NCBI GenBank assembly: GCA_963825175.1
Contig: CAWGSA010000002.1
Coordinates: forward strand, 2,270,346 to 2,334,345
Direction: 5' to 3'
Source: an uncultured Acidobacteriota bacterium
GTDB lineage: Bacteria; Acidobacteriota; Thermoanaerobaculia; UBA5066; Gp7-AA6
DNA: 64,000 bases
Shown: positions 1 to 34,718 of the stretch, one piece after another
Layout of the letters: each line of letters opens with the position of its first letter
How positions within the stretch are numbered: the first letter of the stretch is position 1
Notes under the pieces: model-generated
The model's input: only the letters and a program-made list of their open reading frames with translations
Told to the model about the DNA's origin: nothing
The model's database searches: none
Program-made: the position numbers and the translations under genes

Positions 1-1029
1 CTGGCGCTGGTCGAGGCTCTTGATGAGCCACACCGCCGACCTCATCTTGTCCTTCAGGTAATTGGCGGCTTCCTGCCCGATGGCGCCGTTGCCTCCGCGG
101 AGCATCCGGCGGTAGGCGGCGGAGATGCGCAGCTTGGGGAGCCCGTCCTCGTTCAACTGAATGACGTACTCGTCGCCGATCTTGCGAACGGCGACGTCCG
201 GCTCGACGTAGATCGTCCGCTCGCTCGAGTACTTGCGGCCCGGCTTGGGCTCCAGGTTCTTGACGATCTCCAGGACCGCCTGGAGCTCCGACATGCCGAC
301 GTTCAATGCCTTGCAGAGCTGGGCGTACTGGCGGTTCAGGAATTCGGCCCAGTGCTGCGTGATCACCTTATCGATCAGGGGGTTCTCGATTCCCAGCGTT
401 CGGATCTGGATCATCAGGCAGTCGGGCAGGTCGAAGGCGCAGATGCCCGGCGGATCGAAGGCGCGGACCGTGGCCAGAGCCTTCTCCACGTCCGCGTCCT
501 CGGCATATCCGGCCGCTCGGATCTCCTCCCGCGAGACCCGCAGATAGCCGTCCTCGTCCACGTTGCCGATCAGGTACGTGGCGATCTCCCGCACTCGAGA
601 ACTGGCGTCGGACATCGAGAGCTGCCAGGTCAGGTACTCCTGGAGGCCGGGAGGGGTCGAGAGCGTGTTCTCGAGGGGGACCTGCTCGCTGTCCTCGTAC
701 TGCCGAGGGTTGTAGGCGCTCTCCAGGTAGTCCTCGAAGTAGGTGTCGAAGTCGATCTCCTCGAAGGAATCCCGCTCCTTCTCCGCCGGCGCCTCCGAAG
801 GGGCCTCCAGAGCCGGGGCGGGAGCCTCTTCCTTGGCTGCCTCCAGGCGCTCGGTTTCGGCCTGGTCCTCCTGTTCCTCTTCCAGCAGGGGGTTTTCGAC
901 CATCTCCTGGGTAAGGACTTCCTCCAGCTCGAGCTTGGACATCTGCAGCAGCTTGATCGCCTGCTGCAGCGACGGCGTCATGACGAGCCGCTGCGAAAGC
1001 TTGAGATGGAGTTTTTGTTCCAGAGCCAT
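1..1029 (-). CDS. rpoN: RNA polymerase sigma-54 factor RpoN, partial (3' end beyond the window start)
   Basis: The reverse complement from 1029 reads MALEQKLHLKLSQRLVMTPSLQQAIKLLQMSKLELEEVLTQEMVENPLLEEE, the canonical sigma-54 N-terminal region I. It sits immediately downstream of lptB, which is the conserved lptB-rpoN arrangement. The track does not list it because the ORF runs off the window edge. Confidence 0.85.
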   Translation of the reverse strand, partial: MALEQKLHLKLSQRLVMTPSLQQAIKLLQMSKLELEEVLTQEMVENPLLEEEQEDQAETERLEAAKEEAPAPALEAPSEAPAEKERDSFEEIDFDTYFEDYLESAYNPRQYEDSEQVPLENTLSTPPGLQEYLTWQLSMSDASSRVREIATYLIGNVDEDGYLRVSREEIRAAGYAEDADVEKALATVRAFDPPGICAFDLPDCLMIQIRTLGIENPLIDKVITQHWAEFLNRQYAQLCKALNVGMSELQAVLEIVKNLEPKPGRKYSSERTIYVEPDVAVRKIGDEYVIQLNEDGLPKLRISAAYRRMLRGGNGAIGQEAANYLKDKMRSAVWLIKSLDQRQ

Positions 1030-1105
1030 GGTGTGGAAGCTCAGAGGCGAGGAGATCTCGGCCGGAACCAGGGGTTTTGTCGGTTTGGACGAACGTTCAT
1101 GCTGC

Positions 1106-1858
1106 TCAATTCAGCTGGAAAGCCTCCCCCAGGTAAATCTTCTTGACGACGGCGTCGCTCGACAGGGCAAGGGGCGTGCCAGCCCTCAGAATCTCGCCGG
1201 CATTGATTATATAGGCCCGGTCGACGATCGACAAAGTCTCGCGAACGTTGTGGTCGGTCACCAGAACGCCGATCCCCGAGGAGGCCAGGCGCCGCGCGAT
1301 GGCCTGGATGTCGAGCACCGCGATCGGATCGATTCCCGCGAAGGGCTCGTCCAGCAGGAGAAACTCCGGCTCCAGGACGAGACTTCGTGCGATCTCGACG
1401 CGGCGTCGCTCTCCGCCCGACAGCGTGTAGGCACGGTGCGCGCGCAGCGGCTCCAGTCCGAAGTCCGCGAGCAGCCGATCCGCCCGCTCCTGCCTCTCGC
1501 CCCTCGTCAGATCGAGCGTTTCCAGGATCGCCACCAGGTTCTGCTCGACCGTCATCTTTCGGAAGACCGAAGGCTCCTGAGGGAGGTAGGAGATGCCGGC
1601 CCGAGCCCGCTTGTACATCGGCAGATCGGTCAGGTCTCTCTCCCCCAGACGAACGGTTCCGGCGTCCGGACGGACGAGGCCCACGACGATGGAAAAGGTG
1701 GTGGTCTTGCCCGCGCCATTGGGCCCGAGGAGGCCCACGATCTCTCCCGCGCCGATTTCCAGAGAGACTCCGGAAACGACGGCGCGGCCGGCGTAGGTCT
1801 TGATCAACCCGACGGCTTCGAGGATGGGTCGCTGGATCGGGCTCTCGGTGGCGTTCAC
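1106..1858 (-). CDS. lptB: LPS export ABC transporter ATP-binding protein LptB
   Basis: Walker [13 protein letters not shown] signature [15 protein letters not shown], Walker B LLLDEP. It is 250 aa and lies upstream of rpoN. Confidence 0.9.
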
Positions 1859-3861
1859 GACGTTCGGGTTCGGTGAATCGTTTCGGTTTTTCCGCCTTCG
1901 GGGGCGGTCACTTCGACCCTACGCCCCCGCTCGGTGATCGTCAAGACGGCGCCGGTCACCCGGTTCCCGGCCGCATCAGACACCCAGGCCGGCGAGCCCT
2001 CGAGAACCGTTTTCCCCTCGCGCGGCCAGTCGGTGGCGTGCTCCGCGCGCCCCGATCGCCCCTCGCCCGAATCGGCCAGCGTGACGCTTCCGGTCATCTC
2101 GACGCGCTGGATCTTGCGGTCCTCTCCAAACACCGCCACTGCGCGGGACGCGGTGGATTGCCAGGTGCCTCGGGTCATCGAGACGTCCTCTTCGAAGACG
2201 GCCTGTGATTCCTTCTCCCGGTAGGTGACGCGGCGAGCGGTGACGACCGCGGGCGAGGGCGGCGCCACCGCGCCGGGCTTGCGGTCCTGAGCGTCCGCCG
2301 AGAGCACCACGGTGCGCGTGTGCCCGACCGCGACGGCGGACCGCTCGACGTCGTTCAAAGTGATCGCGTCGCCGGACAGGGAGGAGGCGTCCTGCCACAG
2401 CGTGGCGCCTCCGGTCAGAGAGGCCACGTGCGAGGCGTCGTCGAGCACCATGCGGCGGGCCTTTCCAAAGGTCGGCTTCCCGGGATCTCCCACCAGCGCC
2501 GGCGCATGCCCGGGCGCGGCGCCCTTTGCGCCGTCCTTGGCCGGCGTGAAGACCGCTCGGGCACTCCCCTCGGCCGTCAGCAGGTGTCGCTTCTCGTCGA
2601 TCTCGATGCGGTCCGCGGAGATCCGCGAGCCTCGGCTCTCGACGGTCGCCGTGCCGTGGTCTCCGCTCAAGATCCACACGCCGCGATCCGGCAGATCGAC
2701 CGCCTTTTCGGCCCGGCCCGAGCGGTCCTCCCCTTCCATCCGGACGTTGCCCGAGAGCTCCATCGTTTCGATCTCCCCCGCGGGCGTGAACGAAAGGCTG
2801 GCCTGCTCGGAGTCGGCGCGCGTCTTCTCGCCGTCGACGTGGACGGCGCCCCGCGCCGTCGCGGACGTGGCCCGGCCGTCCCGAAACGAGACGTCGATGG
2901 TAGAAGCCCGCACGCGACCTCGGGGGTCGAAGACCTCAGCCGGCGCGCCGGTCAAGGAAAGGGAGTTCGCCTTGCCGTCGGACCCGAAGAGGATCGCCGC
3001 GGACGCCGCGGTGTACCGGCGCGGAGCGGTCGTGCCCTTTCCCGTGGCCCCGGCAGGCCCGGCGACGAGGGTCCCCTGAACGTCTCCTTCGGCGCGGGCC
3101 CACTGCAGGCGTCCCTCGTCGCCCTCGAGCTTCAAGACCAGCCGGTCGCTGGAAAGCCGATCGCCGGAGCGGCTGGCCGCCGAAACGCGGCCGGACAGCT
3201 CGATGGTCGAGTCGTCGCGACGATAGACCGCGGCCGCAGCGGAGAGGGATGTCAAGCCGCCGCTGCCTTCTCCCGTGCCCGTCCCTTTCACCGGGCCGTT
3301 CAAGAACACCTGTCTGGTCTTCACGTCGTAGCGTCCGGACTGCGAAGTCAGCTCGAAGGTGCCGCGCGTGAAATGAAGGGGGCTCGGCGCGGTGAGCAGT
3401 CGCTGAGAAGGCTCGAATTCCAGAGTTTCCGTTTCTCCCAGCGCGCCTCGCTCGTCGGTCCAGTGAACATTTCCCGAGAGGCGCGCGCGCTTGCTGCGCT
3501 GGTCGTACTCGGCGCGGTCCGAGCGCACCGTCACCGCCTCACCCTGCTCGGGATAGACCGTGAGCGCGACCCGCTCGAGAACGTACACGTTGGGGACGAG
3601 GCCGGCGGCCGGCCCGAATCCGACCGTACGGTCCGCCTGAATGTGGAAGAGCGGCTTGCCCCGCAGGGTCTCGGTGTAATCGAAGCCCTTCAGGACGGTG
3701 GTCGCCGCGCCGGCCTCCTCCGCGGACGGGATGGTCGGAAGAGTCTCCCGTCCGGCCGCGCCCCGCGACGGCCGCCGGCCCGGTCGAAAGGCGAAGGCCA
3801 GAACGATCAGGAAGACCAGGCCGAAGCCGAGAATGGCGAACTCGAGGCGGCGTCGGCTCAT
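1855..3861 (-). CDS. Membrane-anchored protein with several LptA/OstA-like beta-jellyroll repeats (LptC/LptA-like)
   Basis: N-terminal TM segment [20 protein letters not shown]. Motifs recur along the protein ([55 protein letters not shown]). Its stop overlaps the lptB start by 4 nt, the position lptC/lptA normally occupy. Confidence 0.55.
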
Positions 3862-9202: not shown

Positions 9203-9850
9203 TCACGTCTGAGCCGGGACGGGCGCCTCGTCGTCGTCCTCGTCGTCGCGCACGAAGACGTACGACCGGTGCACGGGATCCCACCGGTAGCGCCGCACCC
9301 CTTCGTCGGAGAGGTCCGGGGTGATGACGACCGCGTCCCGGTCGACGGAGAGGTCTCCCCGCGAAAGCGACACGTCGCGCTCGAGAAACGTCCCCGGGGA
9401 GTAGCCCCTGCCTCCGCCCCGTCCGGTGAAGATCACGACCGAGAACCAGGGCATGGCCCTGCTCGAATCGCGGTGCACGAAGGCCTGGATGAAGTCCAGG
9501 ACTCCGTCGTCGTTCAGATCGCCACGGACGAAATAAGGGTGGTACACGCCGTAGAGGCCCCGCACGTCGCCGTCTCCGCTGTGCGCGCCGTGCCGGTCCG
9601 AGTCGGTCGCCACGCGAAGCTCGGTGTGCCGGCTCAGAAATTCGTTCACCGCTTCCCTTTCGGCTTCGGAGAAGACATTGTTGCCGGGTCCGACCTGGGC
9701 GGCAGGGCCGGAGACCGGTTCCGGGGACGCGGGCGATTCGCGCCGCGCCGCTGCCCCCGCCCGCCCTGCCCGGCAGGCGACTCCCCTGTAGCCCAGGAGC
9801 GTCGCGGATGCGGCCAGCGCGAGAATCCAATGGATCTGAGATCGGCTCAA
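9203..9850 (-). CDS. Hypothetical secreted protein (signal peptide)
   Basis: N-terminal signal-like ILALAASATLLGY and an acidic tail, with no recognisable domain. Its codon composition is plausible for this genome. Confidence 0.45.
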   Translation of the reverse strand: MSRSQIHWILALAASATLLGYRGVACRAGRAGAAARRESPASPEPVSGPAAQVGPGNNVFSEAEREAVNEFLSRHTELRVATDSDRHGAHSGDGDVRGLYGVYHPYFVRGDLNDDGVLDFIQAFVHRDSSRAMPWFSVVIFTGRGGGRGYSPGTFLERDVSLSRGDLSVDRDAVVITPDLSDEGVRRYRWDPVHRSYVFVRDDEDDDEAPVPAQT

Positions 9851-16036: not shown

Positions 16037-17899
16037 TCAGGCCGGCGTCTCCCGGACCAGGTCGTTGTCGGTGAAGAACTGCATCTCGTGAAGCCTGCGG
16101 TACAGGCCGGGGCGAGTCAAGAGCTCGTCGTGCGTTCCGGACTCCACGATCCGGCCGGCGTCCAGGACCACGATGCGATCGGCCCGCCGCACGGTCGAGA
16201 GCCGATGGGCGATGACCAGCGTCGTGCGCCCGCGCATCAGGTTGCGCAGCGCCCGGGCCACCAGCATCTCGGATTCGGTGTCCAGCTGCGACGTGGCTTC
16301 GTCCAGGATCAGGATCGGCGCTCCCTTGTAGATCGCGCGGGCGATCGCCAGGCGCTGCTTCTGGCCTCCGGACAGGCGTCCGGCGTCCTCCCCCACCCGG
16401 GTGTCGTATTTGTCGGGCAGTCGCTCCACGAACTCGTCGACGTACGCCGCGCGCGCCGCCTCCCGCATCTTCTCCTCGGGCGGAGACGTCTGCCCGTAGG
16501 CGATGTTTTCCCGGATCGTGGAGTCGAAGAGGATCGTGTCCTGCGTCACCAGGCCGATCTGGCCGCGCAGGGACGGCAGGGTGGCGTCGCGCAGGTCCAC
16601 GCCGTCGAAGGTAATGCGCCCGGCCTCGGGGTCATAGAAGCGCGGCAGCAGATTGACCAGGGTCGTCTTGCCCGCGCCGGACGGCCCGACCAACGCGACC
16701 GTTTCGCCCGACCGGATGGTCAAGGAGATCCCGCGCAGGACCTCCTCGCGCCCATACCCAAACAGGACGCCCTCGTAGCGGAGAGCATCGCGAAACGGGG
16801 GAAGCGCAATCGCTCCGGGTGACTCGACGATTTCATTCTCACGGTCGATGACTTCGAACACCCGTCGGGCCGACGAGAGGGCGAGTTGGATGGCGATGTT
16901 GATGCGGGTGACGTCCTTCAATGGCTTGTACATCATCATGAGCGCGGTGAGGAACGAGAAGAGATCGCCCACCCGCATCCGCCCGCCATGGATCTGCCCG
17001 GCGGCGTAGATGAAGAGAGCGGACAGGCCGATGCCCGAGAGCGTCTCCATGAACGGGGCATTCAAGGCCTGCAGCCGGATCGTGCGGCGGTTCACGCGGA
17101 AGTACCGATCGTTGCTCTGGTCGAACCGGCGCGCTTCGAACGGCTCCATGGCGTAGGCCTTGATGACGCGGTGCCCCCGCAGCGTCTCGGAGAGGAGGGC
17201 TCCCATCTCCCCGATCCGCTCCCGCGCGGCGGTGGCGGCGCGGCCCAGCCGGCGCGTATTGTTGATGATCGGCAGCAGGATGATGGGGGCCAGCGCGAAG
17301 ACGATCACCGCGAGACGGGCGTTCAACGAAAAGACGTAGACGAGCACCAGGAGCAGCGTCAATCCTCCCTGCACCAGGTCCGTCAGGTTGTGGCCGAACG
17401 TCGTCTGGATCTGCTCGACGTCGGAAAGCATTCGGGAGAGCAGATCGCCGGTCGACGTCTCCGAGTAGAACCGGGTGGACTGCCCCAGGAGGCGGTTGTA
17501 CGCGTCCCGTCGCAGGTCCCGCACCATGGCCACCCCGATGCCGTTCAATTCGAATTCGGACAGATAGGAAAAGAGATTCTTCGACACCAGCGCCAGGAGC
17601 AGAAGCAGCGGCGCACCCCACGCCACGGAGACTCCGCGGCGCTGCGCCGCCGCGCATCCCGCGGCGTAGGCCTGATCCAGCCACCGCAGCAACGGCGCGG
17701 CCCGGGACGACGCGGACCTTCCCATGCCGGCCAGGCTCCGTGCCGTGGTGCCCGCTCCGAGCGCGTCATCGATGACCTTCCCGAAGAGAAAGAGCATCGC
17801 CACGGTCGAGAGCGAGACGATCCCCATGGCCACCAGCGCGGCGAGCGCCCGCCACCTGTAGCGCGCAAAGTACTTCAGAAGGCGAGGCAGCGGTTTCAT
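16037..17899 (-). CDS. msbA: ABC transporter permease/ATPase, MsbA-like lipid exporter
   Basis: Six-TM N-terminal domain, then Walker A GPSGAGKTT, signature LSGGQKQRLAIARA, Walker B ILILDEATS. It is adjacent to and overlaps lpxB. Confidence 0.8.
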   Translation of the reverse strand: MKPLPRLLKYFARYRWRALAALVAMGIVSLSTVAMLFLFGKVIDDALGAGTTARSLAGMGRSASSRAAPLLRWLDQAYAAGCAAAQRRGVSVAWGAPLLLLLALVSKNLFSYLSEFELNGIGVAMVRDLRRDAYNRLLGQSTRFYSETSTGDLLSRMLSDVEQIQTTFGHNLTDLVQGGLTLLLVLVYVFSLNARLAVIVFALAPIILLPIINNTRRLGRAATAARERIGEMGALLSETLRGHRVIKAYAMEPFEARRFDQSNDRYFRVNRRTIRLQALNAPFMETLSGIGLSALFIYAAGQIHGGRMRVGDLFSFLTALMMMYKPLKDVTRINIAIQLALSSARRVFEVIDRENEIVESPGAIALPPFRDALRYEGVLFGYGREEVLRGISLTIRSGETVALVGPSGAGKTTLVNLLPRFYDPEAGRITFDGVDLRDATLPSLRGQIGLVTQDTILFDSTIRENIAYGQTSPPEEKMREAARAAYVDEFVERLPDKYDTRVGEDAGRLSGGQKQRLAIARAIYKGAPILILDEATSQLDTESEMLVARALRNLMRGRTTLVIAHRLSTVRRADRIVVLDAGRIVESGTHDELLTRPGLYRRLHEMQFFTDNDLVRETPA

Positions 17900-19041
17900 G
17901 GAGTCCGTGCGGCGGCCGAGGAGGGAGAAGGCTCGAGATCGGCCACTGCGTCCAGGATCGCCGCCGCCGCTCGATCCGACGCGCCCGGCGGTCCCAGCTC
18001 CCGGGCCACGCGCTCGAGGCCCCGTCGCATGGCCTCCCGGCGCGGTGCCGAGGAGAGGAGCGTCTCCGCTTCGCGCTCCAGGCGATCCGCCGAGACCTCG
18101 TTCTGCAGCAGCTCGGGAACGATCTCCTCCTGGGCCACGATGTTGACGAGCGAGATCCAGGGAACCCGGACCAGGAGCTTGCCGACGGCGAAGCTCGCGG
18201 GGGAAGTCCGGTATACCACGATCATCGGGGCGCCGCAGAGCGCGGCTTCGAGCGTCGCCGTTCCCGACGCCACCAGAGCGAGGTCGGCCGAGGCCAGGAT
18301 CGGGTGCATTCCGGAGTCGACGACCCGGATTCCCCGCTGCGTCGCGTCGCCGAACAGGGTTTCCGAGACGCCGGCCGCACGGACCGCGACGACTTCGAGG
18401 TCGAACCGGGCCGCGAGTCGCTGCGCCGCCCGCGCCATCGGCTCCCAGTGCCGCCGCAATTCCGCCGTGCGGCTGCCCGGGAGCAGAACGAGCCGTCGTC
18501 TCGTCTTCTCCGGCAGCGGCGAGGGCCGGGCCAGGCCCTCACGGACGTCGTCGACGAGAGGATGCCCGGCGCAAATCGCGTCCGCCCCCAGGCGGCGGTA
18601 GATGTCCGCCTCGAACGGAAAGAGCGTGATGATCCTCCTGGCCCTTCGGGCGATGCGCCGGGCGCGTCCACGGCGCCAGGCCCATACCTGCGGGCTCACG
18701 TAGTAGATCAGCGGCACGCCCCTGCGTTGGAGCCGTCGCGCGAGGAAACCGTGGAAGTCGGGAAAGTCGATCAGCACCGCGGCATCCGGTCGGCGTCGGG
18801 CTGCGGCCCGGATCAGACCGCGAAGGGCGCCGACGAGCCCCGAAAGCTTCTCCAGGACCTCGGAGACTCCGACGACCGACAGGCCCTCCGACCGAACCAC
18901 CGTGTCGAGCCCCTCGGCCGCGAGCCGCGCTCCGCCCATCCCGAAGGCGGCGAGATCCGGCCGGCGCCGCCTCAGGGCAGCCAGCAGGCGCGAGCCGAGC
19001 AGATCGCCGGAAGCTTCGCCGGCGGAGAAAAGCAAGTACAA
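17896..19041 (-). CDS. lpxB: Lipid-A-disaccharide synthase
   Basis: MYLLFSAGEASGDLLGSRLLAAL...LIYYVSPQVWAWR is typical LpxB. Confidence 0.85.
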   Translation of the reverse strand: MYLLFSAGEASGDLLGSRLLAALRRRRPDLAAFGMGGARLAAEGLDTVVRSEGLSVVGVSEVLEKLSGLVGALRGLIRAAARRRPDAAVLIDFPDFHGFLARRLQRRGVPLIYYVSPQVWAWRRGRARRIARRARRIITLFPFEADIYRRLGADAICAGHPLVDDVREGLARPSPLPEKTRRRLVLLPGSRTAELRRHWEPMARAAQRLAARFDLEVVAVRAAGVSETLFGDATQRGIRVVDSGMHPILASADLALVASGTATLEAALCGAPMIVVYRTSPASFAVGKLLVRVPWISLVNIVAQEEIVPELLQNEVSADRLEREAETLLSSAPRREAMRRGLERVARELGPPGASDRAAAAILDAVADLEPSPSSAAARTP

Positions 19042-19227
19042 TCGCTTCCAATTAAATCAAATGCACCAGTCATCCCCGCCGCCGGTCGGGTCTACTGACC
19101 GGGACAGCGCCGGCGCGGGGAGAAGACGCGCCTCCGATGGCCGAAGCCGTTCTCCGTCTCAAGGAAACCGCATCGCGCCGCTGGACGGACGAATGGTCAT
19201 GACCGGGTCCATCCCAGGCGGCTCCCC

Positions 19228-20301
19228 GTGGCGATGAAGGCCTCGCTGGTGGGCTGCGGCCGGATCGGAGCCCGCCACGCCGCTCTGCTGGCGGGCTCGC
19301 CGGAGACGGAGCTGGCGGCCTGCGTGGACACGGAACCGGCTCGGGCCGAGGACTTCGCGCAGCGGCACAGCGCCCGGGCCTACGCGGACCTCGCGACGAT
19401 GGTCGCCGCCGAGTCCCCCGACCTGGTGGCGATCTGTACTCCCTCCGGACTCCACGCGGAGCATGTCGAGGCGTCGGCCCGCGCCGGCGTGCCCAACATC
19501 ATCGTCGAGAAACCCATGGCGCTCACTCTTGCCGACGCGGACCGGATGATCCAGGTGTGCGATACGGCAGGAGCGAGGCTCTTCGTGGTGCAGCAGAACC
19601 GGTACAACCTTCCGATCCAGAAGCTGCGGGATGCGGTCGATCAGGGGCGCTTCGGAAGGCTGGTTCTGGGCACCGTCCGCGTTCGGTGGTGCCGCCGGCA
19701 GGACTACTACGACCAGGCCGCCTGGCGCGGGACGTGGGCCATGGACGGCGGGGTCTTTTCCAATCAGGCCTCGCACCATATCGACATGCTGCTCTTCATG
19801 ATGGGACCGGTCGAGTCCGTCTTTGCGGCGGGCGCGACGCGCCTGGTCGACATCGAGGCGGAGGACACCGGCGTCGCCTTGTTGAAGTTCCGAAGCGGCG
19901 CCCTGGGCATCGTCGAGGCGACGACGGCGGCCAGGCCCGTGGACCTGGAGGGTTCGATCTCGATTCTTGGCGAGAACGGCACGGTCGAAGTGGGCGGCTT
20001 CGCCATGAACGAGATGAAAGTCTGGCGCTTCGCCGAAACCTTGCCCGAGGACGAAGGCGTTCTGGAGCGCTTTCGAACCAATCCGCCGGACGTCTACGGG
20101 TTCGGCCACCACGCCTTCTATCGAGACGTCTTCGCGTCGATCGCGACCGGCCACGGCACCACGGTGGACGGCCTCGAAGGGCGCCGCTCGCTGGAAGCGA
20201 TCACCGCGATCTACGAGTCGGTCGAAAGTCGGCAAGAGATCCAGCTTCCTTTCACCCCAAGGGCGTGCCGGCTGGGCATTCCGTCGGGTCCCCGGGCATG
20301 A
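19228..20301 (+). CDS. Gfo/Idh/MocA-family NAD(P)-dependent oxidoreductase (GnnA/WbpB-like UDP-sugar 3-dehydrogenase candidate)
   Basis: Rossmann N-terminus MKASLVGCGRIGARHAALLA with the family core. It overlaps the downstream DegT aminotransferase and is divergent from lpxB. Confidence 0.75.
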   Translation: MAMKASLVGCGRIGARHAALLAGSPETELAACVDTEPARAEDFAQRHSARAYADLATMVAAESPDLVAICTPSGLHAEHVEASARAGVPNIIVEKPMALTLADADRMIQVCDTAGARLFVVQQNRYNLPIQKLRDAVDQGRFGRLVLGTVRVRWCRRQDYYDQAAWRGTWAMDGGVFSNQASHHIDMLLFMMGPVESVFAAGATRLVDIEAEDTGVALLKFRSGALGIVEATTAARPVDLEGSISILGENGTVEVGGFAMNEMKVWRFAETLPEDEGVLERFRTNPPDVYGFGHHAFYRDVFASIATGHGTTVDGLEGRRSLEAITAIYESVESRQEIQLPFTPRACRLGIPSGPRA

Positions 20302-21410
20302 TTCCCCTCTCCCGCGCAACGGTGACGCCGGAAATGAAGCAGGCGATGCTCGACGTCGTCGACTCGGGGGTCTTCATCCTCGGCCCCGAGACGCGGGCCT
20401 TCGAGCAGGAGTTTGCCCGATCCATCGGCGTGCGCCATGCCGTGGCCGTCTCGCAGGGGACGTCCGCCATCCAGCTCTCTCTCCTGGCCATCGGGGTCCG
20501 CCCCGGCGACGAGGTGCTGGTTCCCGCGATGACCGCCTTCCCCACGATCGAAGGGATCGTGCACGCCGGTGCCACGCCGGTGTTCGCGGATATCGACGCC
20601 TTCGGCGCCATCGACCCCGGCGACGCGGCCAGGCGCCTGTCCCCGCGCACAATCGGGATCCTGCCGGTGCACCTGTACGGAGGCTCCGCCGACCTGCAGG
20701 CCCTGGCGTCGCTGGCCGCGGACCACAATCTCTGGATTGTGGAGGACTGCTGCCAGGCCCATGGAGCCCGGTTCCGGGAGAAGGCCGTGGGCGCGGTCGG
20801 CCGGGCCGGCTGCTTTTCCTTCTATCCTTCGAAGAACCTGACGGTCTTCGGCGACGGCGGCATGGTCACCACCGACGAGGACGCGATCGCGGACCGCGTG
20901 CGGCTCCTGCGCGACCACGGGCGGATCGACAAGTCCACCCATGCCGTCGTTGGCTTCAACCTGCGCTTCAACGAGATCCAGGCGGCGGTGGGGCGAAGGC
21001 AGCTTGCGCTGCTGGAGGAGTTCGTCGCGCGGCGGCGCCGGATCGCAGGGCGGTACGACGAAAGCCTCAACGAGATCGCGGGCGTCGGCATCCCTCGCGA
21101 ACGGCCCGGCACGCGGATGTCTTACCACCTCTACCCCATTGCGCTCGACAGCGAAACCACGCGGGACGGACTGCGGGATCACCTGAAGCGCCGGGGAATC
21201 GAGACCGGTATCCACTACCCGATCCCCAATCATCTCCAGCCGGCGATGTCGCAACGCGGCCACCCTCCGTCGCTGCCGGCGTCGGAAACCCTGGCCAAGA
21301 CGACCCTCTCCTTGCCGATGTTTCCAGGTCTCTCGGACGAAGACGTCGAGACGGTGATCGGCGCGATCGCCGAGTGTTTCGGCCAGGGCGCCGCTCTCAA
21401 GGCGCCGTAG
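20298..21410 (+). CDS. DegT/DnrJ/EryC1/StrS-family PLP aminotransferase (GnnB/WbpE-like)
   Basis: PSKNLTVFGDGGMVTTDE (PLP-lysine region), FNLRFNEIQAAVG, HYPIP. The ATG at 20298 overlaps the upstream stop. The 617-aa track ORF 19557..21410 is an over-extension. Confidence 0.8.
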   Translation: MIPLSRATVTPEMKQAMLDVVDSGVFILGPETRAFEQEFARSIGVRHAVAVSQGTSAIQLSLLAIGVRPGDEVLVPAMTAFPTIEGIVHAGATPVFADIDAFGAIDPGDAARRLSPRTIGILPVHLYGGSADLQALASLAADHNLWIVEDCCQAHGARFREKAVGAVGRAGCFSFYPSKNLTVFGDGGMVTTDEDAIADRVRLLRDHGRIDKSTHAVVGFNLRFNEIQAAVGRRQLALLEEFVARRRRIAGRYDESLNEIAGVGIPRERPGTRMSYHLYPIALDSETTRDGLRDHLKRRGIETGIHYPIPNHLQPAMSQRGHPPSLPASETLAKTTLSLPMFPGLSDEDVETVIGAIAECFGQGAALKAP

Positions 21411-23271
21411 CCGCGTTCTCCGCTTCCCGGCGGCCCCGAATCCATCGCCGGTACCACGCCTCGAGGTTCAAGAGCAGCCAGAGTTTGTTGTGGCGCCTCT
21501 GCGAGCTTCCCTCGACCAGGGCGCGCAGCGGCCGGGCCCGCACCAACCCGTCCGCGGCGAGGTCTCCCTTCTCCAGGATCGAGAGCGCCGTGTCGCGGTT
21601 GGCCCCCGAGACCCACCGCTTGAAGGGCGGAGAGAACCCGGCCTTGCTCCTCGTCAGGATCGCTTCCGGCAGCCATGGCCGAATCGCCTCCCGGAACGCG
21701 ATCTTGGTGGAGCCCGGAAAGACCAGCCGCTCCGGCGGCAGCGAAAATGCGTACTCCACGAGCTGGCGATCGAGCAGCGGGACGCGCGCCTCCAGGCCGA
21801 CGGCCATGGTCGACCGGTCGACCTGCATCAGGCCGTTGTCGGGAAGATAGGTGTGGACGTCCAGATACAGGAGCCGGTGGGCCAGCGGAAGGTCGGGGCG
21901 GTCGAACTTCCGGAAGAGCCACGCCGGATCCTCCGGCGCGCGGCCCGCCACGAGAGCCTGCTCGGCCGCGGTGAAGAATCCCCGCACCGGATAGTAGCGA
22001 TCGATGAACTCTCTCCCCGTGACGCGCGCCGCTCCGGCCAGTCGGGCAAGGCGCGGGCGCGCCGCGAGCGGTCCCAGGATGCCCCGATCGACCGCAGACA
22101 ACACCGGCCGGAACACGGCCAGGTTCTGACGCATCCGCTCGTACCGCATGACCGTCTCGTGCCATCCGTAGCCGCCGAAGATCTCGTCTCCGCCGTCGCC
22201 GGTCAGCACGACCTTGACCTCCGGCCTGGCCAGCGCCGCGACCTCGGCCACGGCCAGGGCGCTCGAATCGTAGAGCGGCTCGTCGTAGACCTCCGCGGCG
22301 CGAGCCAGGGCTCCGGCCAGGTCGCCGATCTCGACGATGCGTTCCGTGTGCTTCGTCCGGAACGCTGCCGCGGCGATACGGGCGTGCTCGAGATCGCTCC
22401 GGTCGCCGTCGCGGTACGCGATGGTATAGGTCGGCAGGCCGGGGGTGGCTTGGGCCGCGCGGCCGACGACGGTGGACGAATCGAGCCCGCCCGAGAGGAA
22501 CGCTCCGACCGGCACGTCGGACACCAGGTGGGATCGCACCGCGCGATCCAGCCGTTCGCGCAGCTCCTCCGGGTCGTCGCGGACGCTCTGCCTCTCGAGC
22601 CTCCAGAAGGAAGCGACCTCCACGCGCCCGCTTTCTGCGTCGAAGATCAGCCGATGGGCGGCGGGGAGCTTGAAGATGCCGGCGAAGATCGAGCGATCGT
22701 CCGGAACGTATCCGTACGAGAGAAAATCCGAGAGCGCGGTCGGGTCCGGACGCGCGGAAACACCGGGGAGCGCCAAGAGCGCCTTGGGCTCGGACGCGAA
22801 GGCCAGTCCCCGCGGCAGCCTGGTCCAGTACAAGGGCTTGATTCCGATTCGGTCCCTGGCCAGGAGGAGCCGTCGCTCACGCTCGTTCCAAAGTGCCAGG
22901 GCGAACATGCCCTCGACGCGGGAGAGCGCTTCGTCTCCGTCGCGCCTCAATAGCCGATGAACCACCTCGCCGTCGCTCTGGGAGACGAAGCGCTCTCCGG
23001 CCGCCTCCAGCTCCTCGCGCAGCGAGCGGAAGTTGTAGACCTCGCCGTTATGGATGAAGGCGGACCCGCCGTCGGGAGCGACCGATGGCTCCTCTCCCCG
23101 GATGGACGGATCGAGAATGGCCAGCCGCCGGTGGCCGAGCATGGCCCGCCCGTCCGGCGAGAGCCACCGTCCACTCCCGTCGGGCCCGCGGCGCCGCAGA
23201 GTGGAGATCGCGCGGTCCAGGGCCTCCGCGTCGATCCGCTCGACGGAGATCCAACCGGCGATGCCGCACAT
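21397..23271 (-). CDS. asnB: Asparagine synthase (glutamine-hydrolysing), AsnB family
   Basis: N-terminal MCGIAGW (Cys2 class-II amidotransferase) and the PP-loop SGGLDSS. 624 aa. Its 3' end overlaps the convergent aminotransferase by 14 nt. Confidence 0.85.
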   Translation of the reverse strand: MCGIAGWISVERIDAEALDRAISTLRRRGPDGSGRWLSPDGRAMLGHRRLAILDPSIRGEEPSVAPDGGSAFIHNGEVYNFRSLREELEAAGERFVSQSDGEVVHRLLRRDGDEALSRVEGMFALALWNERERRLLLARDRIGIKPLYWTRLPRGLAFASEPKALLALPGVSARPDPTALSDFLSYGYVPDDRSIFAGIFKLPAAHRLIFDAESGRVEVASFWRLERQSVRDDPEELRERLDRAVRSHLVSDVPVGAFLSGGLDSSTVVGRAAQATPGLPTYTIAYRDGDRSDLEHARIAAAAFRTKHTERIVEIGDLAGALARAAEVYDEPLYDSSALAVAEVAALARPEVKVVLTGDGGDEIFGGYGWHETVMRYERMRQNLAVFRPVLSAVDRGILGPLAARPRLARLAGAARVTGREFIDRYYPVRGFFTAAEQALVAGRAPEDPAWLFRKFDRPDLPLAHRLLYLDVHTYLPDNGLMQVDRSTMAVGLEARVPLLDRQLVEYAFSLPPERLVFPGSTKIAFREAIRPWLPEAILTRSKAGFSPPFKRWVSGANRDTALSILEKGDLAADGLVRARPLRALVEGSSQRRHNKLWLLLNLEAWYRRWIRGRREAENAATAP

Positions 23272-32200: not shown

Positions 32201-32620
32201 TCAGGACGCCCGCCGCGCGAGAAGAAGGAGCGCCACCGACGCCGCCACCAGGACCAGATCTTCGGCCACCGTCCCCCAACCGAGGGGGCGCGCCAGGAAG
32301 ACGCCGAAGCAGCCGCAGTTGGCCAGCTTCAAGCCCCGCTCGATCGCCGCGGCGGACCAGGTCGCATAAGCCAGGTGCGCGGCCGTCGAGGTGAGCGCCG
32401 ACGCCACCAGCGCCCGGCCGCTGAAGAGCCACATCGCCAGCACGAGCTCCGCGATGGGGATCAAGACGGCGAGCGGCCGAAGAGACGCCTCCGGAAGAGC
32501 CCGGTATGTCCCGAGCACGCGAGCGAAGCCGCCGACGTCGAGCAGTTTCCCGACGGCCGTGGCGAGCAGGATCACCCCAATCGCCACCCGCAGGAATGCC
32601 GCCGCTCGCCTCCTCCCCAT
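32201..32620 (-). CDS. MauE/DoxX-like small membrane protein
   Basis: Four TM helices with CGCFG (LANCGCFGVF), typical of the MauE/DoxX family. Confidence 0.5.
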   Translation of the reverse strand: MGRRRAAAFLRVAIGVILLATAVGKLLDVGGFARVLGTYRALPEASLRPLAVLIPIAELVLAMWLFSGRALVASALTSTAAHLAYATWSAAAIERGLKLANCGCFGVFLARPLGWGTVAEDLVLVAASVALLLLARRAS

Positions 32621-32677
32621 GTCAGTCCGGCTCGAGCGCCCGCCGCGCGGCGAGATCCCGATTAACCCCGAGCCGCG

Positions 32678-33439
32678 TCACTGGGCATTGAGCGTCCAAT
32701 CGTACGGGATGAATTCGACCTTCCAATCGGCGGGGATCTTGTCGTCGCGGTACTGGTTGACGTACGCGATGAGGGAAGGCGCTTTCTGGGTGAAGTCCCC
32801 GGTATAGAACTGGAGGATCTGCGACAGATGGACGGTCTGCTTGTCGGGCTCGAGCCGGACGTTGCGCTCCTCGTTGTAGAACTCCCTGGCCTGCCGGTCG
32901 AGTTGCTGGTCCAGCTTGTCCGCTTCGAACGCCTCGCGCGGGAGGCGGGGACAGCCGCGGGCCATGCAGTTCAAGGCCACGTGGACGCGGGGATCTCCCA
33001 TCGGGCGGACGACCTTGTTCTCGAGCTCGTACAGAGACAGGGAGCGGCCCCCGATCTCGAACCGGTTCTTGTAGAAGAAGGTGACCTTGACCTTGTCGAG
33101 GTTGGCCGGAAAATCCGATTTCAGGACGTCGTACATGGCGACCGCGTTGTAGGTGTTGATGTCGTACGCGAGCTTCGAGGCCGGGGTGGAGAAAGAGGGA
33201 GGGTCCGACTCCGGGCCCACCCTCGCCGCCCAGGCCAGATAGGCGTTCAGGCTGGCCGGGTCCTTGGCCATCCCGCGGAAGTCCATGCGTCCTTTGTCAT
33301 CGACGAACCGGGAAAGATGATCGGCCCACGCCTTCTGGGGCGAGGCGCCGGCCGAAGGGGCGGCCTGGGGAGGCGCGATCCGCACTGCGCAGGCGCAGGC
33401 GAAAGCCAGGAAGGCAACGAGGCGGAGAATCTTGTTCAT
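32678..33439 (-). CDS. DUF547-domain secreted protein
   Basis: Signal peptide MNKILRLVAFLAFACACA. DUF547 signature YNAVAMYDVL...HVALNCMARGCPRL. Confidence 0.7.
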   Translation of the reverse strand: MNKILRLVAFLAFACACAVRIAPPQAAPSAGASPQKAWADHLSRFVDDKGRMDFRGMAKDPASLNAYLAWAARVGPESDPPSFSTPASKLAYDINTYNAVAMYDVLKSDFPANLDKVKVTFFYKNRFEIGGRSLSLYELENKVVRPMGDPRVHVALNCMARGCPRLPREAFEADKLDQQLDRQAREFYNEERNVRLEPDKQTVHLSQILQFYTGDFTQKAPSLIAYVNQYRDDKIPADWKVEFIPYDWTLNAQ

Positions 33440-33455
33440 GGCTCTCCTCGCTGGA

Positions 33456-34718
33456 TCATTGAAGAACGGGAAGGGCGGAGCCGGACAGCGGATTCCAGAG
33501 GCGCCGCCCCTCTCCCGTGTCGAGCGTGATCGGTTTCAGGATGAACTCGTCGCGGCGGGCGTTGTGGGCGCACATGGAGATCGGCCCGTCCGCGGTCATG
33601 ACCATGAAAGAGCAGGCGTGCACCCGCTCGGGGTCGAGCGCCGTCGCGTCCATGAAATTCTGGACGAAGAAGGAGAGCTTGTGGACTCTCCCGCGCGCCG
33701 CCAGCAGGTCCCGCCGCATCTTCCAGAGCTTCGGGAGGAAGAACTTCGCGGAGCGGACCAGCCAGCTCGGCCGGCGCAGGGCTTCGCGGACCAGGGCGCT
33801 CACGGCCGCCCGCGGCGAGCGGCGATCGAGCATCACGTGCTCGAAGTCCACCAGGAACCGGTTGAAGAACTCCGCGTCGTCGTTCAGGTCGTACAGCCGG
33901 CCATTGGCCGCGAGCGTGATTCCGATGCGGTGACAGTCCGGATGTCCGATCAGGATCGTGTCCCACGAGATCGGCGTCTCCGCGCCCTCGCAGATCTTGG
34001 CGCGGACGGTCGCGAGCGAGATCACCCGGTCCCGCTCGCGCAGGATCCCGCGCCCCGTGTCGGCCTGGAGCTGGAACGACCCCATGCCCACGACGTCGGC
34101 ATGGCGCCGGAAGAATCGGATCAAGTCAGGGATCTCCTCGAAGTTCTCGCGGCACACCGTCGTATTGAAGATCACCGCGATCGGCAGGCCCCGGGCCCGC
34201 TCGATGTACTCGCGGCGAACGGCGTTCAAGTCCTCCTCCGTGGCGTAGCCCTTGCGCTCCTGGGTCACGTCGACGTGAAACGCCACGTCGTTCAACCCGG
34301 CCCGTGAGAGCTCCTGGAGAAGGTCCCGCGTGGCCTTGATGCCGTTGGTCATGAGAGTGGGGAGCATTCCCCGGTCGCGGACGCGGCGCACGATCGCGAC
34401 GAGTTCGGACCTCTCCCGCAGGGTCGGGTCGCCGCCGGTGATCTGCACGGACGTTGGGGCTCCGAACTGCGCCTGGATCGCATCGATCCGCCGGAACACT
34501 TCGGGCAGCGGGAGGTCCTTGACTCTCTCCGAGTTCTCCGAGAGGTAGCAGAGGGTGCAGTCGAGGTTGCACCGCTGCGTGATCTCGAGCGCGACGCATC
34601 CGATCGCATTGCGGCGGCCCAGGACCTGGTTGTCTCGAAAGTGCTCCCCCATCCGAAGACGGGTCGCCCCCAGGGCCTGTGCGCGGTTCTCGCTCTCTGC
34701 GACGGGTACACGGCTCAT
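33456..34718 (-). CDS. Radical SAM enzyme (CxxxCxxC), subfamily unassigned
   Basis: ITQRCNLDCTLCY cluster, a glycine-rich SAM motif ITGGDPTL, and a C-terminal Cys pair CSFMVMTADGPISMC. RBS GGAGGATGAGGAGGGG precedes the ATG. Confidence 0.8.
   Translation of the reverse strand: MSRVPVAESENRAQALGATRLRMGEHFRDNQVLGRRNAIGCVALEITQRCNLDCTLCYLSENSERVKDLPLPEVFRRIDAIQAQFGAPTSVQITGGDPTLRERSELVAIVRRVRDRGMLPTLMTNGIKATRDLLQELSRAGLNDVAFHVDVTQERKGYATEEDLNAVRREYIERARGLPIAVIFNTTVCRENFEEIPDLIRFFRRHADVVGMGSFQLQADTGRGILRERDRVISLATVRAKICEGAETPISWDTILIGHPDCHRIGITLAANGRLYDLNDDAEFFNRFLVDFEHVMLDRRSPRAAVSALVREALRRPSWLVRSAKFFLPKLWKMRRDLLAARGRVHKLSFFVQNFMDATALDPERVHACSFMVMTADGPISMCAHNARRDEFILKPITLDTGEGRRLWNPLSGSALPVLQ

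What the first reader, a model, noticed from the sequence alone, without database searches (positions are those of the whole stretch)
19228..21410. A GnnA/GnnB-like oxidoreductase and aminotransferase pair sits next to lpxB and msbA
A Gfo/Idh/MocA NAD-dependent oxidoreductase is translationally coupled to a DegT-family PLP aminotransferase, and the pair is divergent from lpxB-msbA-like.

In Acidithiobacillus and Leptospira the analogous pair, GnnA and GnnB, converts UDP-GlcNAc to UDP-GlcNAc3N. Lipid A is then built on 2,3-diamino-2,3-dideoxyglucose, with four amide-linked acyl chains.

The same enzyme pair also occurs as WbpB/WbpE in O-antigen pathways, so the lipid A link rests only on position. 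The adjacent asnB-family amidotransferase overlaps the aminotransferase convergently by 14 nt, and could be an LPS amidation enzyme of the WbpS type.
Basis: partly seen in the sequence, partly recalled or inferred. Interest (0 to 1): 0.55.

Follow-up and report, generated by a model that had tools for sequence, protein, structure and literature searches.

The report
Amino-sugar enzyme pair beside lpxB
Two coupled genes next to the lipid A genes lpxB and msbA in an acidobacterium should make a 3-amino sugar nucleotide, possibly for an amide-linked lipid A; the first enzyme is related to the O-antigen enzyme WlbA, not to the known GnnA, and the lipid A link rests on gene position only.

Summary
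A Gfo/Idh/MocA oxidoreductase (19234-20301, +) overlaps a DegT aminotransferase (20298-21410, +) by ATGA. The pair is divergent from lpxB-msbA, and a convergent asnB-family gene overlaps the aminotransferase by 14 nt.

- The oxidoreductase is not an orthologue of the characterised GnnA (PDB 7BVJ, E=1.7e-8). It belongs to the Bordetella/Chromobacterium WlbA family (E=1e-90, 46% identity), which are UDP-GlcNAcA 3-dehydrogenases of an O-antigen pathway.
- The window's pair nevertheless belongs to a separate clade with 100% bootstrap support for both proteins, mostly Thermoanaerobaculia (Acidobacteriota).
- This clade lacks the WbpD/WlbB N-acetyltransferase found in 51 of 80 related loci.
- Its aminotransferase is a different lineage, 29-41% identical to the WlbC-like partners.
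- It never sits in a polysaccharide cluster. Its settings are lpxB-msbA (11 loci), an HpnIJK(L)-like hopanoid-glucosamine cluster, or a lone GT4. The aminotransferase's sister sits in an Arn-like operon.

Most likely the pair makes a 3-amino sugar nucleotide with a free amine, probably UDP-GlcNAc3N, for a membrane lipid. The lipid A backbone is the best guess (about 0.45). The substrate and the destination are both untested. asnB is not part of the module.

The parts
16037..17899 (-). msbA-like ABC exporter (lipid A flippase family), 620 aa. Its start overlaps the stop of lpxB by 4 nt.
   Evidence: ABC_membrane plus ABC_tran domains. The best NCBIfam match is TIGR02203 MsbA_lipidA at 551 bits, below the 602 cut-off. 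It holds the same position in L083-L085 and L087-L090.
17896..19041 (-). lpxB, lipid-A-disaccharide synthase, 381 aa.
   Evidence: Pfam LpxB at E=6e-80. TIGR00215 scores 245.8 bits, above the 190.25 cut-off.
19042..19233 (.). 192-nt divergent intergenic region between lpxB and the oxidoreductase.
   Evidence: Sequence shown. No sigma-70-like site was found. No conserved block appeared across six related loci.
19234..20301 (+). NAD-dependent Gfo/Idh/MocA nucleotide-sugar 3-dehydrogenase of the WlbA (B. pertussis) family, 355 aa. An alternative GTG start lies at 19228.
   Evidence: - Pfam domains.
- PDB 3Q2K E=1e-90 and 3Q2I E=4e-83, against GnnA 7BVJ E=1.7e-8 and WbpB 3OA2 E=1.5e-9.
- 46% and 44% identity to the Bp and Cv WlbA. 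GCGRIG, D32, EKP-K93 and H181 are invariant with WlbA.
- The clade is monophyletic in 100/100 bootstraps.
20298..21410 (+). PLP-dependent DegT-family sugar aminotransferase, 370 aa. It is coupled to the dehydrogenase by an ATGA overlap.
   Evidence: - DegT_DnrJ_EryC1 at E=1e-112.
- Among named PDB entries the best matches are enzymes I know as C3 aminotransferases: DesV 2OGA E=7e-82, WbpE E=7e-65 and QdtB E=8e-64. Two uncharacterised entries rank among them: 7B0D, the top hit at E=6e-87, and 3UWC at E=7e-69. The YPSK Schiff-base lysine motif is kept.
- 67-75% identity within the clade, but only 29-41% to the WlbC-like partners of related dehydrogenases.
21397..23271 (-). asnB-family glutamine amidotransferase, 624 aa. 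It is a convergent neighbour and is not a constant part of the module.
   Evidence: - GATase_6/7 plus Asn_synthase domains.
- TIGR01536 scores 407 bits, above the 267 cut-off.
- The MCGI N-terminus and the SGGLDS PP-loop are present.
- It is absent at this position in L085 and L087, and does not accompany the pair in L081 or L086.

Best explanation
The two genes form a self-contained module that makes a 3-amino sugar nucleotide.

Proposed mechanism:
- The Gfo/Idh/MocA enzyme uses NAD+ to oxidise the 3''-OH of a UDP-N-acetylhexosamine to the 3-keto sugar.
- The PLP-dependent DegT enzyme transaminates this to the 3-amino sugar. This two-step chemistry is inferred from homology with high confidence.
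- No WbpD/WlbB-type N-acetyltransferase belongs to the module, so the product keeps a free 3-amine.

The most likely substrate and product are UDP-GlcNAc and UDP-GlcNAc3N. The most likely use is as the LpxA substrate for a lipid A built on 2,3-diamino-2,3-dideoxyglucose, whose disaccharide is then made by the adjacent LpxB and exported by MsbA. Both of these steps are inferred from gene context only.

The module would then do the job of GnnA/GnnB without being their relative. The dehydrogenase was recruited from the WlbA family of O-antigen enzymes, and the aminotransferase comes from a different DegT lineage than WlbC/WbpE.
For: Chemistry:
- The dehydrogenase shows full-length similarity to the UDP-GlcNAcA 3-dehydrogenases 3Q2K and 3Q2I (E=1e-90 and 4e-83), with conserved NAD and catalytic motifs.
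- The named PDB relatives of the aminotransferase (DesV, WbpE, QdtB) are enzymes I know as C3 aminotransferases. Its catalytic lysine motif is intact.
- The ATGA overlap recurs in L084, L085 and L088.

Free amine and no glycan pathway:
- No hexapeptide acetyltransferase, UDP-sugar 6-dehydrogenase, flippase or WbpM homologue was found in the 64-kb window or in 10 clade loci.
- By contrast, 51 of 80 related loci have Gfo>acetyltransferase>DegT inside polysaccharide clusters.

Distinct lineage:
- The clade is monophyletic in 100/100 bootstraps for both proteins.
- The aminotransferase is only 29-41% identical to the WlbC-like partners.

Lipid link:
- lpxB-msbA lies next to the pair in the window, L001, L002, L004, L006, L083-L085 and L088-L090.
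- Where the pair has moved, it sits beside HpnJ/K/I/L-like genes (L086) or a lone GT4 plus an MFS transporter (L081). From my knowledge of these families, the Hpn genes build a UDP-GlcNAc-derived lipid headgroup.
- The sister of the aminotransferase lies in an ArnC/ArnT-like operon (L040).
- From my knowledge of these families, the lpxB and Hpn settings, and arguably the Arn-like one, concern amino sugars attached to lipids and derived from UDP-GlcNAc.
- One relative of the aminotransferase carries JGI's automatic GnnB name.
Against: - The dehydrogenase's closest characterised relatives act on UDP-GlcNAcA in an O-antigen pathway, not on UDP-GlcNAc. The characterised GnnA is only a remote relative.
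- Almost no conserved residue separates the clade from the relatives found in polysaccharide clusters. The sequence therefore gives no sign of a change of substrate.
- All lpxB-adjacent cases share one long syntenic block (yicC-msbA-lpxB ... HIT-HU-rpsA). They amount to one evolutionary event, not independent support.
- Two clade members place the pair elsewhere. In L087 only the aminotransferase remains beside lpxB.
- Having gnnA/gnnB does not guarantee GlcN3N lipid A, as Campylobacter coli shows.
- gnnA/gnnB are not always linked to lpx genes.
- I found no published data on a GlcN3N lipid A backbone in Acidobacteria.
- lpxA is not in the window.
Confidence: 0.45

Rival explanations
1. The module makes a 3-amino sugar nucleotide that decorates the envelope rather than forming the lipid A backbone. 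The sugar would be added to lipid A phosphates, the LPS core or another membrane glycolipid by a transferase encoded elsewhere, in the manner of Arn, Lgm or Flm.
For: - The sister of the aminotransferase (50% identity) lies in DegT-GT2-Gfo-DedA-PMT_2, an ArnB/ArnC/ArnT-like layout.
- Clade members also sit beside GT4+MFS and HpnI/J/K/L-like genes.
- These settings show that the module serves various lipid glycosylation routes.
Against: - No polysaccharide-type glycosyltransferase was found by homology.
- No ArnC/ArnT-like (GT2 or PMT_2) domain appears among the 41 window proteins scanned with Pfam; the aminotransferase and several short genes were not in the automatic gene list.
- The only sugar-lipid genes next to the pair in the window are lpxB and msbA.
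Confidence: 0.27
2. It is an ordinary Wbp/Wlb-type pathway piece. The pair would be a UDP-GlcNAcA 3-dehydrogenase and aminotransferase for a 2,3-diamino uronic acid in O-antigen or exopolysaccharide. The 6-dehydrogenase, acetyltransferase and epimerase would be encoded elsewhere, and the lpxB adjacency would be an accident of synteny.
For: - The dehydrogenase is 46% identical to B. pertussis WlbA.
- It is 51-62% identical to enzymes in Gfo-AcT-DegT polysaccharide clusters.
- Its active-site-level conservation is the same as theirs.
- JGI names its relatives as the WbpB enzyme.
- To my knowledge, B. pertussis also encodes its 6-dehydrogenase away from the wlb cluster.
Against: - The clade has exchanged the aminotransferase partner and lost the acetyltransferase.
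- None of the 15 clade loci examined lies in a polysaccharide cluster.
- Acidobacteriota also carry the ordinary three-gene form as a separate lineage (L045, L052, P0118).
Confidence: 0.2
3. The oxidoreductase is a general sugar or inositol dehydrogenase and the aminotransferase works on a non-nucleotide substrate, such as an aminocyclitol.
For: - The top NCBIfam match of the oxidoreductase is iolG (131.7 bits).
- The top PDB match of the aminotransferase is labelled glutamine--scyllo-inositol transaminase (7B0D).
Against: - The iolG score is far below its 355 cut-off.
- The WlbA match is full length at E=1e-90, against 1e-20 for inositol dehydrogenases.
- The 7B0D label could not be traced to any paper.
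Confidence: 0.04

Closest known systems
GnnA/GnnB of Acidithiobacillus ferrooxidans (UDP-GlcNAc 3-dehydrogenase, PDB 7BVJ, plus a DegT aminotransferase). They make UDP-GlcNAc3N for GlcN3N lipid A.
   Same: - The pairing is the same: a Gfo/Idh/MocA dehydrogenase with a DegT aminotransferase.
- No N-acetyltransferase is present.
- The pair lies next to a lipid A gene.
- The same product is predicted.
   Different: - The dehydrogenase is only a superfamily-level relative (E=1.7e-8, 37 bits). GnnA has 321 aa against 355 aa here.
- The relationship to GnnB was not tested.
- The substrate and the lipid A chemistry are unknown here.
WlbA of Bordetella pertussis and Chromobacterium violaceum (PDB 3Q2K, 3Q2I), with WlbB and WlbC. 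These are steps in UDP-ManNAc3NAcA synthesis for LPS.
   Same: - The dehydrogenase is a clear family member: 46% and 44% identity, E=1e-90 and 4e-83, full length, with conserved motifs.
- It is followed by a DegT aminotransferase.
   Different: - There is no WlbB/WbpD acetyltransferase.
- The aminotransferase is of another lineage.
- The setting is not a polysaccharide cluster.
- The pair forms a separate clade, with the Bp and Cv enzymes outside the whole radiation.
WbpB/WbpE of Pseudomonas aeruginosa (PDB 3OA2; 3NU7, 3NYU)
   Same: The two-step chemistry at C3'' of a UDP-HexNAc is the same.
   Different: - WbpB is a different Gfo subfamily that depends on alpha-ketoglutarate (E=1.5e-9 here).
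- WbpE matches at E=7e-65, more weakly than DesV at 7e-82 or 7B0D at 6e-87.
ArnB/ArnC/ArnT-type lipid A amino-sugar modification
   Same: - It uses a DegT aminotransferase to make an amino sugar for lipid A.
- The sister lineage (L040) has an Arn-like operon that contains this dehydrogenase family.
   Different: - The ArnB model NF008658 scores 238 bits, below its 631 cut-off.
- No ArnC/ArnT-like (GT2 or PMT_2) domain was seen among the window genes scanned with Pfam.

Membership tests
GnnA (UDP-GlcNAc 3-dehydrogenase, A. ferrooxidans type) | Sequence kinship with the characterised enzyme (PDB 7BVJ) | tested here: not met
   7BVJ scores E=1.7e-8 (37 bits), ranked about 51st. WlbA 3Q2K scores 1e-90.
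GnnA (UDP-GlcNAc 3-dehydrogenase, A. ferrooxidans type) | Gfo/Idh/MocA fold with an NAD-binding motif and catalytic Lys and His | tested here: met
   Pfam domains are present. GCGRIG, D32, K93 (EKP) and H181 are conserved.
GnnA (UDP-GlcNAc 3-dehydrogenase, A. ferrooxidans type) | Oxidises UDP-GlcNAc rather than UDP-GlcNAcA | not testable with these tools
   This needs an enzyme assay or inspection of ligand-bound structures. The WlbA papers were not held.
GnnA/GnnB system | Dehydrogenase paired with a DegT aminotransferase, with no N-acetyltransferase, so that the product keeps a free 3-amine | tested here: met
   There is an ATGA overlap. No acetyltransferase homologue occurs in the window or in 10 clade loci.
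GnnA/GnnB system | Lipid A of the organism contains GlcN3N, and its LpxA accepts UDP-GlcNAc3N | not testable with these tools
   lpxA is not in the window. A literature search for GlcN3N lipid A in Acidobacteria found nothing.
GnnB (UDP-3-keto-GlcNAc aminotransferase) | DegT-family fold with a PLP lysine, closest to C3 aminotransferases | tested here: met
   PF01041 at E=1e-112. The YPSK motif is kept, and the best named PDB matches are DesV, WbpE and QdtB, which I know as C3 aminotransferases.
GnnB (UDP-3-keto-GlcNAc aminotransferase) | Sequence kinship with a characterised GnnB (A. ferrooxidans or C. jejuni) | not tested
   No GnnB sequence could be obtained. The only hint is one automatic JGI name on a relative that is 69% identical.
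WlbA (B. pertussis / C. violaceum type 3-dehydrogenase) | Full-length sequence similarity to 3Q2K and 3Q2I | tested here: met
   E=1e-90 and 4e-83, with 46% and 44% identity.
Wlb/Wbp ManNAc3NAcA pathway | Companion genes: WlbB/WbpD acetyltransferase, WlbC/WbpE-type aminotransferase, 2-epimerase, 6-dehydrogenase, glycosyltransferases and a flippase | tested here: not met
   - None was found in the window or the clade loci.
- The aminotransferase is only 29-41% identical to the WlbC-like partners.
- The rest of the genome could not be searched.
WbpB (P. aeruginosa / T. thermophilus type) | Sequence kinship with 3OA2 and 3O9Z | tested here: not met
   E=1.5e-9 and 1.8e-8. A true WbpB-type protein from L023 scores 1e-106 against 3OA2.
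ArnB | Passes NCBIfam NF008658 | tested here: not met
   238 bits against a cut-off of 631.
Inositol 2-dehydrogenase (IolG) | Passes TIGR04380 | tested here: not met
   131.7 bits against a cut-off of 355.
WbpS-type LPS amidotransferase (proposed for the asnB gene) | An AsnB-family enzyme consistently linked to the sugar pathway it serves | tested here: inconclusive
   - The family and its motifs are present.
- The gene is missing at this position in L085 and L087, and does not travel with the pair in L081 or L086.
- A second paralogue lies between msbA and lpxB in L001, L002, L084 and L087.
LpxB | Passes TIGR00215 | tested here: met
   245.8 bits against a cut-off of 190.25.
MsbA | Passes TIGR02203 | tested here: not met
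   551 bits against a cut-off of 602. It is the best of 187 ABC-exporter models, so 'msbA-like' is the right wording.

The most novel reading that the evidence does not exclude
Thermoanaerobaculia make an amide-linked (GlcN3N) lipid A by a route assembled independently of GnnA/GnnB. The route would pair a WlbA-type dehydrogenase taken from an O-antigen pathway with a DesV-like aminotransferase. This two-gene unit would act as a portable UDP-GlcNAc to UDP-GlcNAc3N cassette that related lineages have plugged into other lipid-headgroup pathways, namely HpnI/J/K hopanoid glucosamine and Arn-like transfer.
Probability: 0.3. Interest if true: 0.6.

Novelty: new variant of a known kind. Interest (0 to 1): 0.45.

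Why it matters
I found no published description of the lipid A backbone sugar in Acidobacteria. A GlcN3N backbone changes acyl-chain stability, Toll-like receptor 4 activation and resistance to antimicrobial peptides.

If the prediction holds, the UDP-GlcNAc3N route has arisen at least twice from different Gfo subfamilies. Searches for GnnA by homology would then miss it, and annotation pipelines that label this protein WbpB would point to the wrong pathway.

The same cassette next to hopanoid-glucosamine genes hints at diamino-sugar headgroups on other membrane lipids.

If the prediction fails, the pair is an ordinary sugar-modifying module that happens to lie beside lpxB.

Tried and rejected
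- **GnnA sequence for GnnB retrieval.** I tried to pull the 7BVJ sequence from the PDB search so as to fetch the A. ferrooxidans gnnA-gnnB locus. A WbpB-type query returned only 3OA2 and 3O9Z. A C-terminal fragment query did not list 7BVJ. GnnB was therefore never compared.
- **Papers not held.** The two WlbA structure papers, the original GnnA/GnnB paper and the C. jejuni gnnA/gnnB paper were not held. The residues that bind the UDP-GlcNAcA carboxylate could not be looked up.
- **Clade-specific substitutions.** I looked for substitutions that would signal a change of substrate. Only C68, A233 and V253 separate the clade from the polysaccharide-type relatives. Bp and Cv WlbA differ from both groups at many invariant sites, for example R149, R151 and R234. 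This was uninformative.
- **Nearby 6-dehydrogenase as a substrate proxy.** Only 10 of 80 loci have one within reach. This is inconclusive, because the gene can lie elsewhere.
- **Regulatory elements.** A promoter scan and an alignment of the lpxB-oxidoreductase intergenic region found no shared element.
- **Literature searches.** Searches for acidobacterial GlcN3N lipid A, PDB 7B0D and Cj0504c/Cj0505c gave nothing useful.
- **Rejected assignments.** IolG, ArnB, PseC and WbpB-type assignments were rejected because the scores fall below the cut-offs.
Full report
**Observation**

The window is 64-72% GC in 2-kb steps, about 68% overall. Filtering ORFs by third-position GC gives a clean gene map.
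- The oxidoreductase ORF begins with GTG at 19228. The ATG at 19234 gives a 355-aa protein identical to a gene call in a public assembly.
- It carries the GFO_IDH_MocA N-terminal and C-terminal domains (E=4e-29 and 1e-28).
- Its TGA stop overlaps the ATG of a 370-aa DegT_DnrJ_EryC1 protein (E=1e-112) as ATGA.
- Upstream and divergent, across 192 nt, lies lpxB (17896-19041, -). It passes TIGR00215 (245.8 bits, cut-off 190.25).
- lpxB overlaps by 4 nt an ABC exporter whose best model is MsbA (551 bits, below the 602 cut-off).
- A 624-aa asnB-family gene (21397-23271, -) overlaps the aminotransferase convergently by 14 nt. It has the MCGI nucleophile and the SGGLDS PP-loop.

**Surroundings**

The rest of the window is housekeeping.
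- It holds rpoN, an lptB-like ATPase, an LptC/LptA-like fusion, recJ, accA, priA, a class II fumarase-family lyase, coaBC and yicC.
- Beyond asnB it holds a HIT protein, rpsA, cmk, a pseudouridine synthase, scpB, scpA, a class I Trp/Tyr-type tRNA synthetase, uvrB, uvrC, a class A PBP and prs. An HU gene is called between the HIT gene and rpsA in an identical public contig.
- No acetyltransferase, UDP-sugar 6-dehydrogenase, flippase or WbpM-type gene related to those of polysaccharide clusters occurs anywhere in the window.
- The best homologues of both proteins come from Thermoanaerobaculia and other Acidobacteriota metagenome genomes.

**What the dehydrogenase is related to**

Comparison with all solved structures is decisive on kinship.

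| Structure | Enzyme | E-value |
|---|---|---|
| 3Q2K | B. pertussis WlbA | 1e-90 |
| 3Q2I | C. violaceum WlbA | 4e-83 |
| 7BVJ | A. ferrooxidans GnnA (identity) | 1.7e-8 |
| 3OA2 | P. aeruginosa WbpB | 1.5e-9 |
| 3O9Z | T. thermophilus enzyme | 1.8e-8 |

- The two WlbA matches are full length, at 46% and 44% identity. Both are UDP-GlcNAcA 3-dehydrogenases of the ManNAc3NAcA pathway that work by a sequential mechanism.
- A genuine WbpB-type protein from locus L023 matches 3OA2 at 1e-106 but does not match 7BVJ at E<=1e-10.
- GnnA, WbpB and WlbA are therefore three separate Gfo lineages, and the window protein belongs to the WlbA lineage.
- 'GnnA-like' is wrong as a statement of kinship.

**Comparative genomics**

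A scan of one genome per species with an alignment of the window protein, both WlbA sequences and four relatives returned 80 loci.
- In 51 of them the dehydrogenase is followed by a roughly 195-aa hexapeptide acetyltransferase and then a DegT gene.
- These loci also hold flippases, glycosyltransferases, WbpM-like, hisH/hisF-like, formyltransferase, NeuB and GDP-mannose dehydratase genes. They are Wbp/Wlb-type polysaccharide clusters.
- Their dehydrogenases are 51-62% identical to the window protein. Their DegT partners are only 29-41% identical to the window aminotransferase.
- Only the closest loci differ: L001, L002, L004 and L006, at 68-72% and about 70% identity. They have lpxB and msbA next to the dehydrogenase, and where the contig extends that far the aminotransferase directly follows it.
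- Look-ups of further relatives give the same block. It reads coaBC-rpoZ-gmk-yicC-msbA-lpxB, then Gfo-DegT divergently, then asnB convergently, then a small ORF, DUF6677, HIT, HU, rpsA and cmk. It appears in L083, L084, L085, L088, L089 and L090.

**The clade**

- In neighbour-joining trees the 12 dehydrogenases without an acetyltransferase form one clade in 100 of 100 bootstraps. It lies inside the polysaccharide-type radiation, and Bp and Cv WlbA lie outside everything.
- The 10 matching aminotransferases also form one clade in 100 of 100 bootstraps. Their nearest neighbours are a Sedimenticolaceae protein (50% identity) and then DesV and 7B0D (44% and 43%).
- Acidobacteriota also carry the ordinary three-gene form as a separate lineage (L045, L052, P0118).
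- The window's pair is thus a derived two-gene module that lost the acetyltransferase and exchanged its aminotransferase partner.

**How much the lpxB adjacency is worth**

- All lpxB-adjacent cases share one long syntenic block, so they count as roughly one event.
- Two clade members, nested among the lpxB-linked ones, carry the pair elsewhere.
  - In L081 (Thermoanaerobaculaceae) it follows a GT4 glycosyltransferase and precedes an MFS transporter.
  - In L086 it is divergent from a gene set that passes the HpnJ model (757 bits against 578) and the HpnK model (260 against 233). The set nearly passes HpnI (304 against 310) and has an HpnL-like gene.
- A third relative, P0112, has the dehydrogenase alone beside genes with the same Pfam families.
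- L087 keeps only the aminotransferase beside lpxB.
- The sister of the aminotransferase (L040) lies in DegT-GT2-Gfo-DedA-PMT_2, which is the ArnB/ArnC/ArnT layout.
- None of these settings is a repeat-unit polysaccharide cluster.
- From established knowledge of the Lpx, Hpn and Arn/Lgm families, the lpxB and Hpn settings concern amino sugars on lipids that derive from UDP-GlcNAc. The Arn-like setting is arguably similar, and the GT4+MFS setting is less clearly so. This is the best indirect argument that the substrate is UDP-GlcNAc and that the destination is a membrane lipid.

**What remains open**

- The sequence gives no sign of a changed substrate. Only three conserved positions separate the clade from its polysaccharide-type relatives.
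- The catalytic and NAD motifs are shared with WlbA.
- The residues that bind the UDP-GlcNAcA carboxylate could not be looked up.
- Only 10 of 80 related loci have a UDP-sugar 6-dehydrogenase nearby, but that gene can lie elsewhere.
- No GnnB sequence could be obtained, so the aminotransferase's kinship to GnnB is untested. The one hint is an automatic JGI name on a relative that is 69% identical. JGI names the dehydrogenase's relatives as WbpB.
- Published work warns that gnnA/gnnB are often unlinked to lpx genes. It also shows that C. coli has both genes yet a GlcN backbone.
- I found no published data on a GlcN3N lipid A backbone in Acidobacteria.

**asnB**

- The gene is an intact glutamine-dependent AsnB-family enzyme. 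It passes the general asparagine synthase model but no specific one.
- It is missing at this position in L085 and L087, and it does not move with the pair in L081 or L086.
- It is therefore not part of the module.
- A second paralogue is inserted between msbA and lpxB in L001, L002, L084 and L087. This leaves open an envelope role for AsnB paralogues in this group. The WbpS idea is neither supported nor excluded.

**Verdict**

- The module very probably performs C3'' oxidation and transamination of a UDP-N-acetylhexosamine and releases a product with a free 3-amine.
- The best single reading, at about 0.45, is a non-orthologous functional counterpart of GnnA/GnnB that supplies UDP-GlcNAc3N for lipid A.
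- Decoration of lipid A or another glycolipid (0.27) and an ordinary Wbp-type role with accidental adjacency (0.20) remain live.
- It is a new variant of a known kind and of moderate interest.

Noticed in passing
window 1855-3861 (-), with 1106-1858 (-) and 1-1110 (-): A 668-aa protein combines an LptC domain with two LptA/LptD_N (OstA) stretches, an apparent LptC-LptA fusion. It lies upstream of an lptB-like ABC ATPase and rpoN.
   Followed up: no
L086 686-8343 (GCA_038239305.1); also the contig of P0112: An orthologous Gfo-DegT pair (about 68% identity for each protein) is divergent from genes that pass the HpnJ and HpnK models and nearly pass HpnI, plus an HpnL-like gene. This suggests a 3-amino sugar feeding a hopanoid-glucosamine-type pathway. 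P0112 has the dehydrogenase alone beside genes with the same Pfam families.
   Followed up: partly
L040 8034-13358 (Sedimenticolaceae MAG): The operon reads DegT, GT2, Gfo, DedA/VTT, PMT_2. The DegT is 50% identical to the window aminotransferase and is its sister in the tree. The Gfo is 58% identical to the window dehydrogenase. The layout is Arn-like, with a Gfo dehydrogenase where ArnA would be.
   Followed up: partly
L001 6783-8615, L002 3152-4984, L084 3614-5230, L087 2627-4564: A second AsnB-family paralogue, 62-64% identical to the window's where measured (L001, L002, L084), is inserted between msbA and lpxB in some relatives. It lies inside the lipid A gene string.
   Followed up: partly
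L087 4749-7086: One relative keeps only the aminotransferase next to lpxB. There is no room for the dehydrogenase in the 185-nt gap, and a Vgb_lyase-like gene replaces the convergent asnB.
   Followed up: no
L081 6841-11689 (Thermoanaerobaculaceae): The pair is preceded by a GT4 glycosyltransferase and followed by an MFS transporter, with no lpxB nearby. A transposase and, in L082, a group II intron reverse transcriptase lie close by.
   Followed up: no
window 9203-9850 (-), 55682-57004 (+), 63314-63874 (-): Three ORFs with gene-like GC3 have no Pfam match.
   Followed up: no
window 32201-34718 (-): A MauE-like membrane protein, a DUF547 protein and a radical SAM protein lie in a row.
   Followed up: no
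window 20793-20813 (+): A terminator-like GC-rich hairpin followed by a T-rich stretch lies inside the aminotransferase coding region. It is within the range expected by chance: 3 found against 1.4 +/- 1.1 in shuffles.
   Followed up: no
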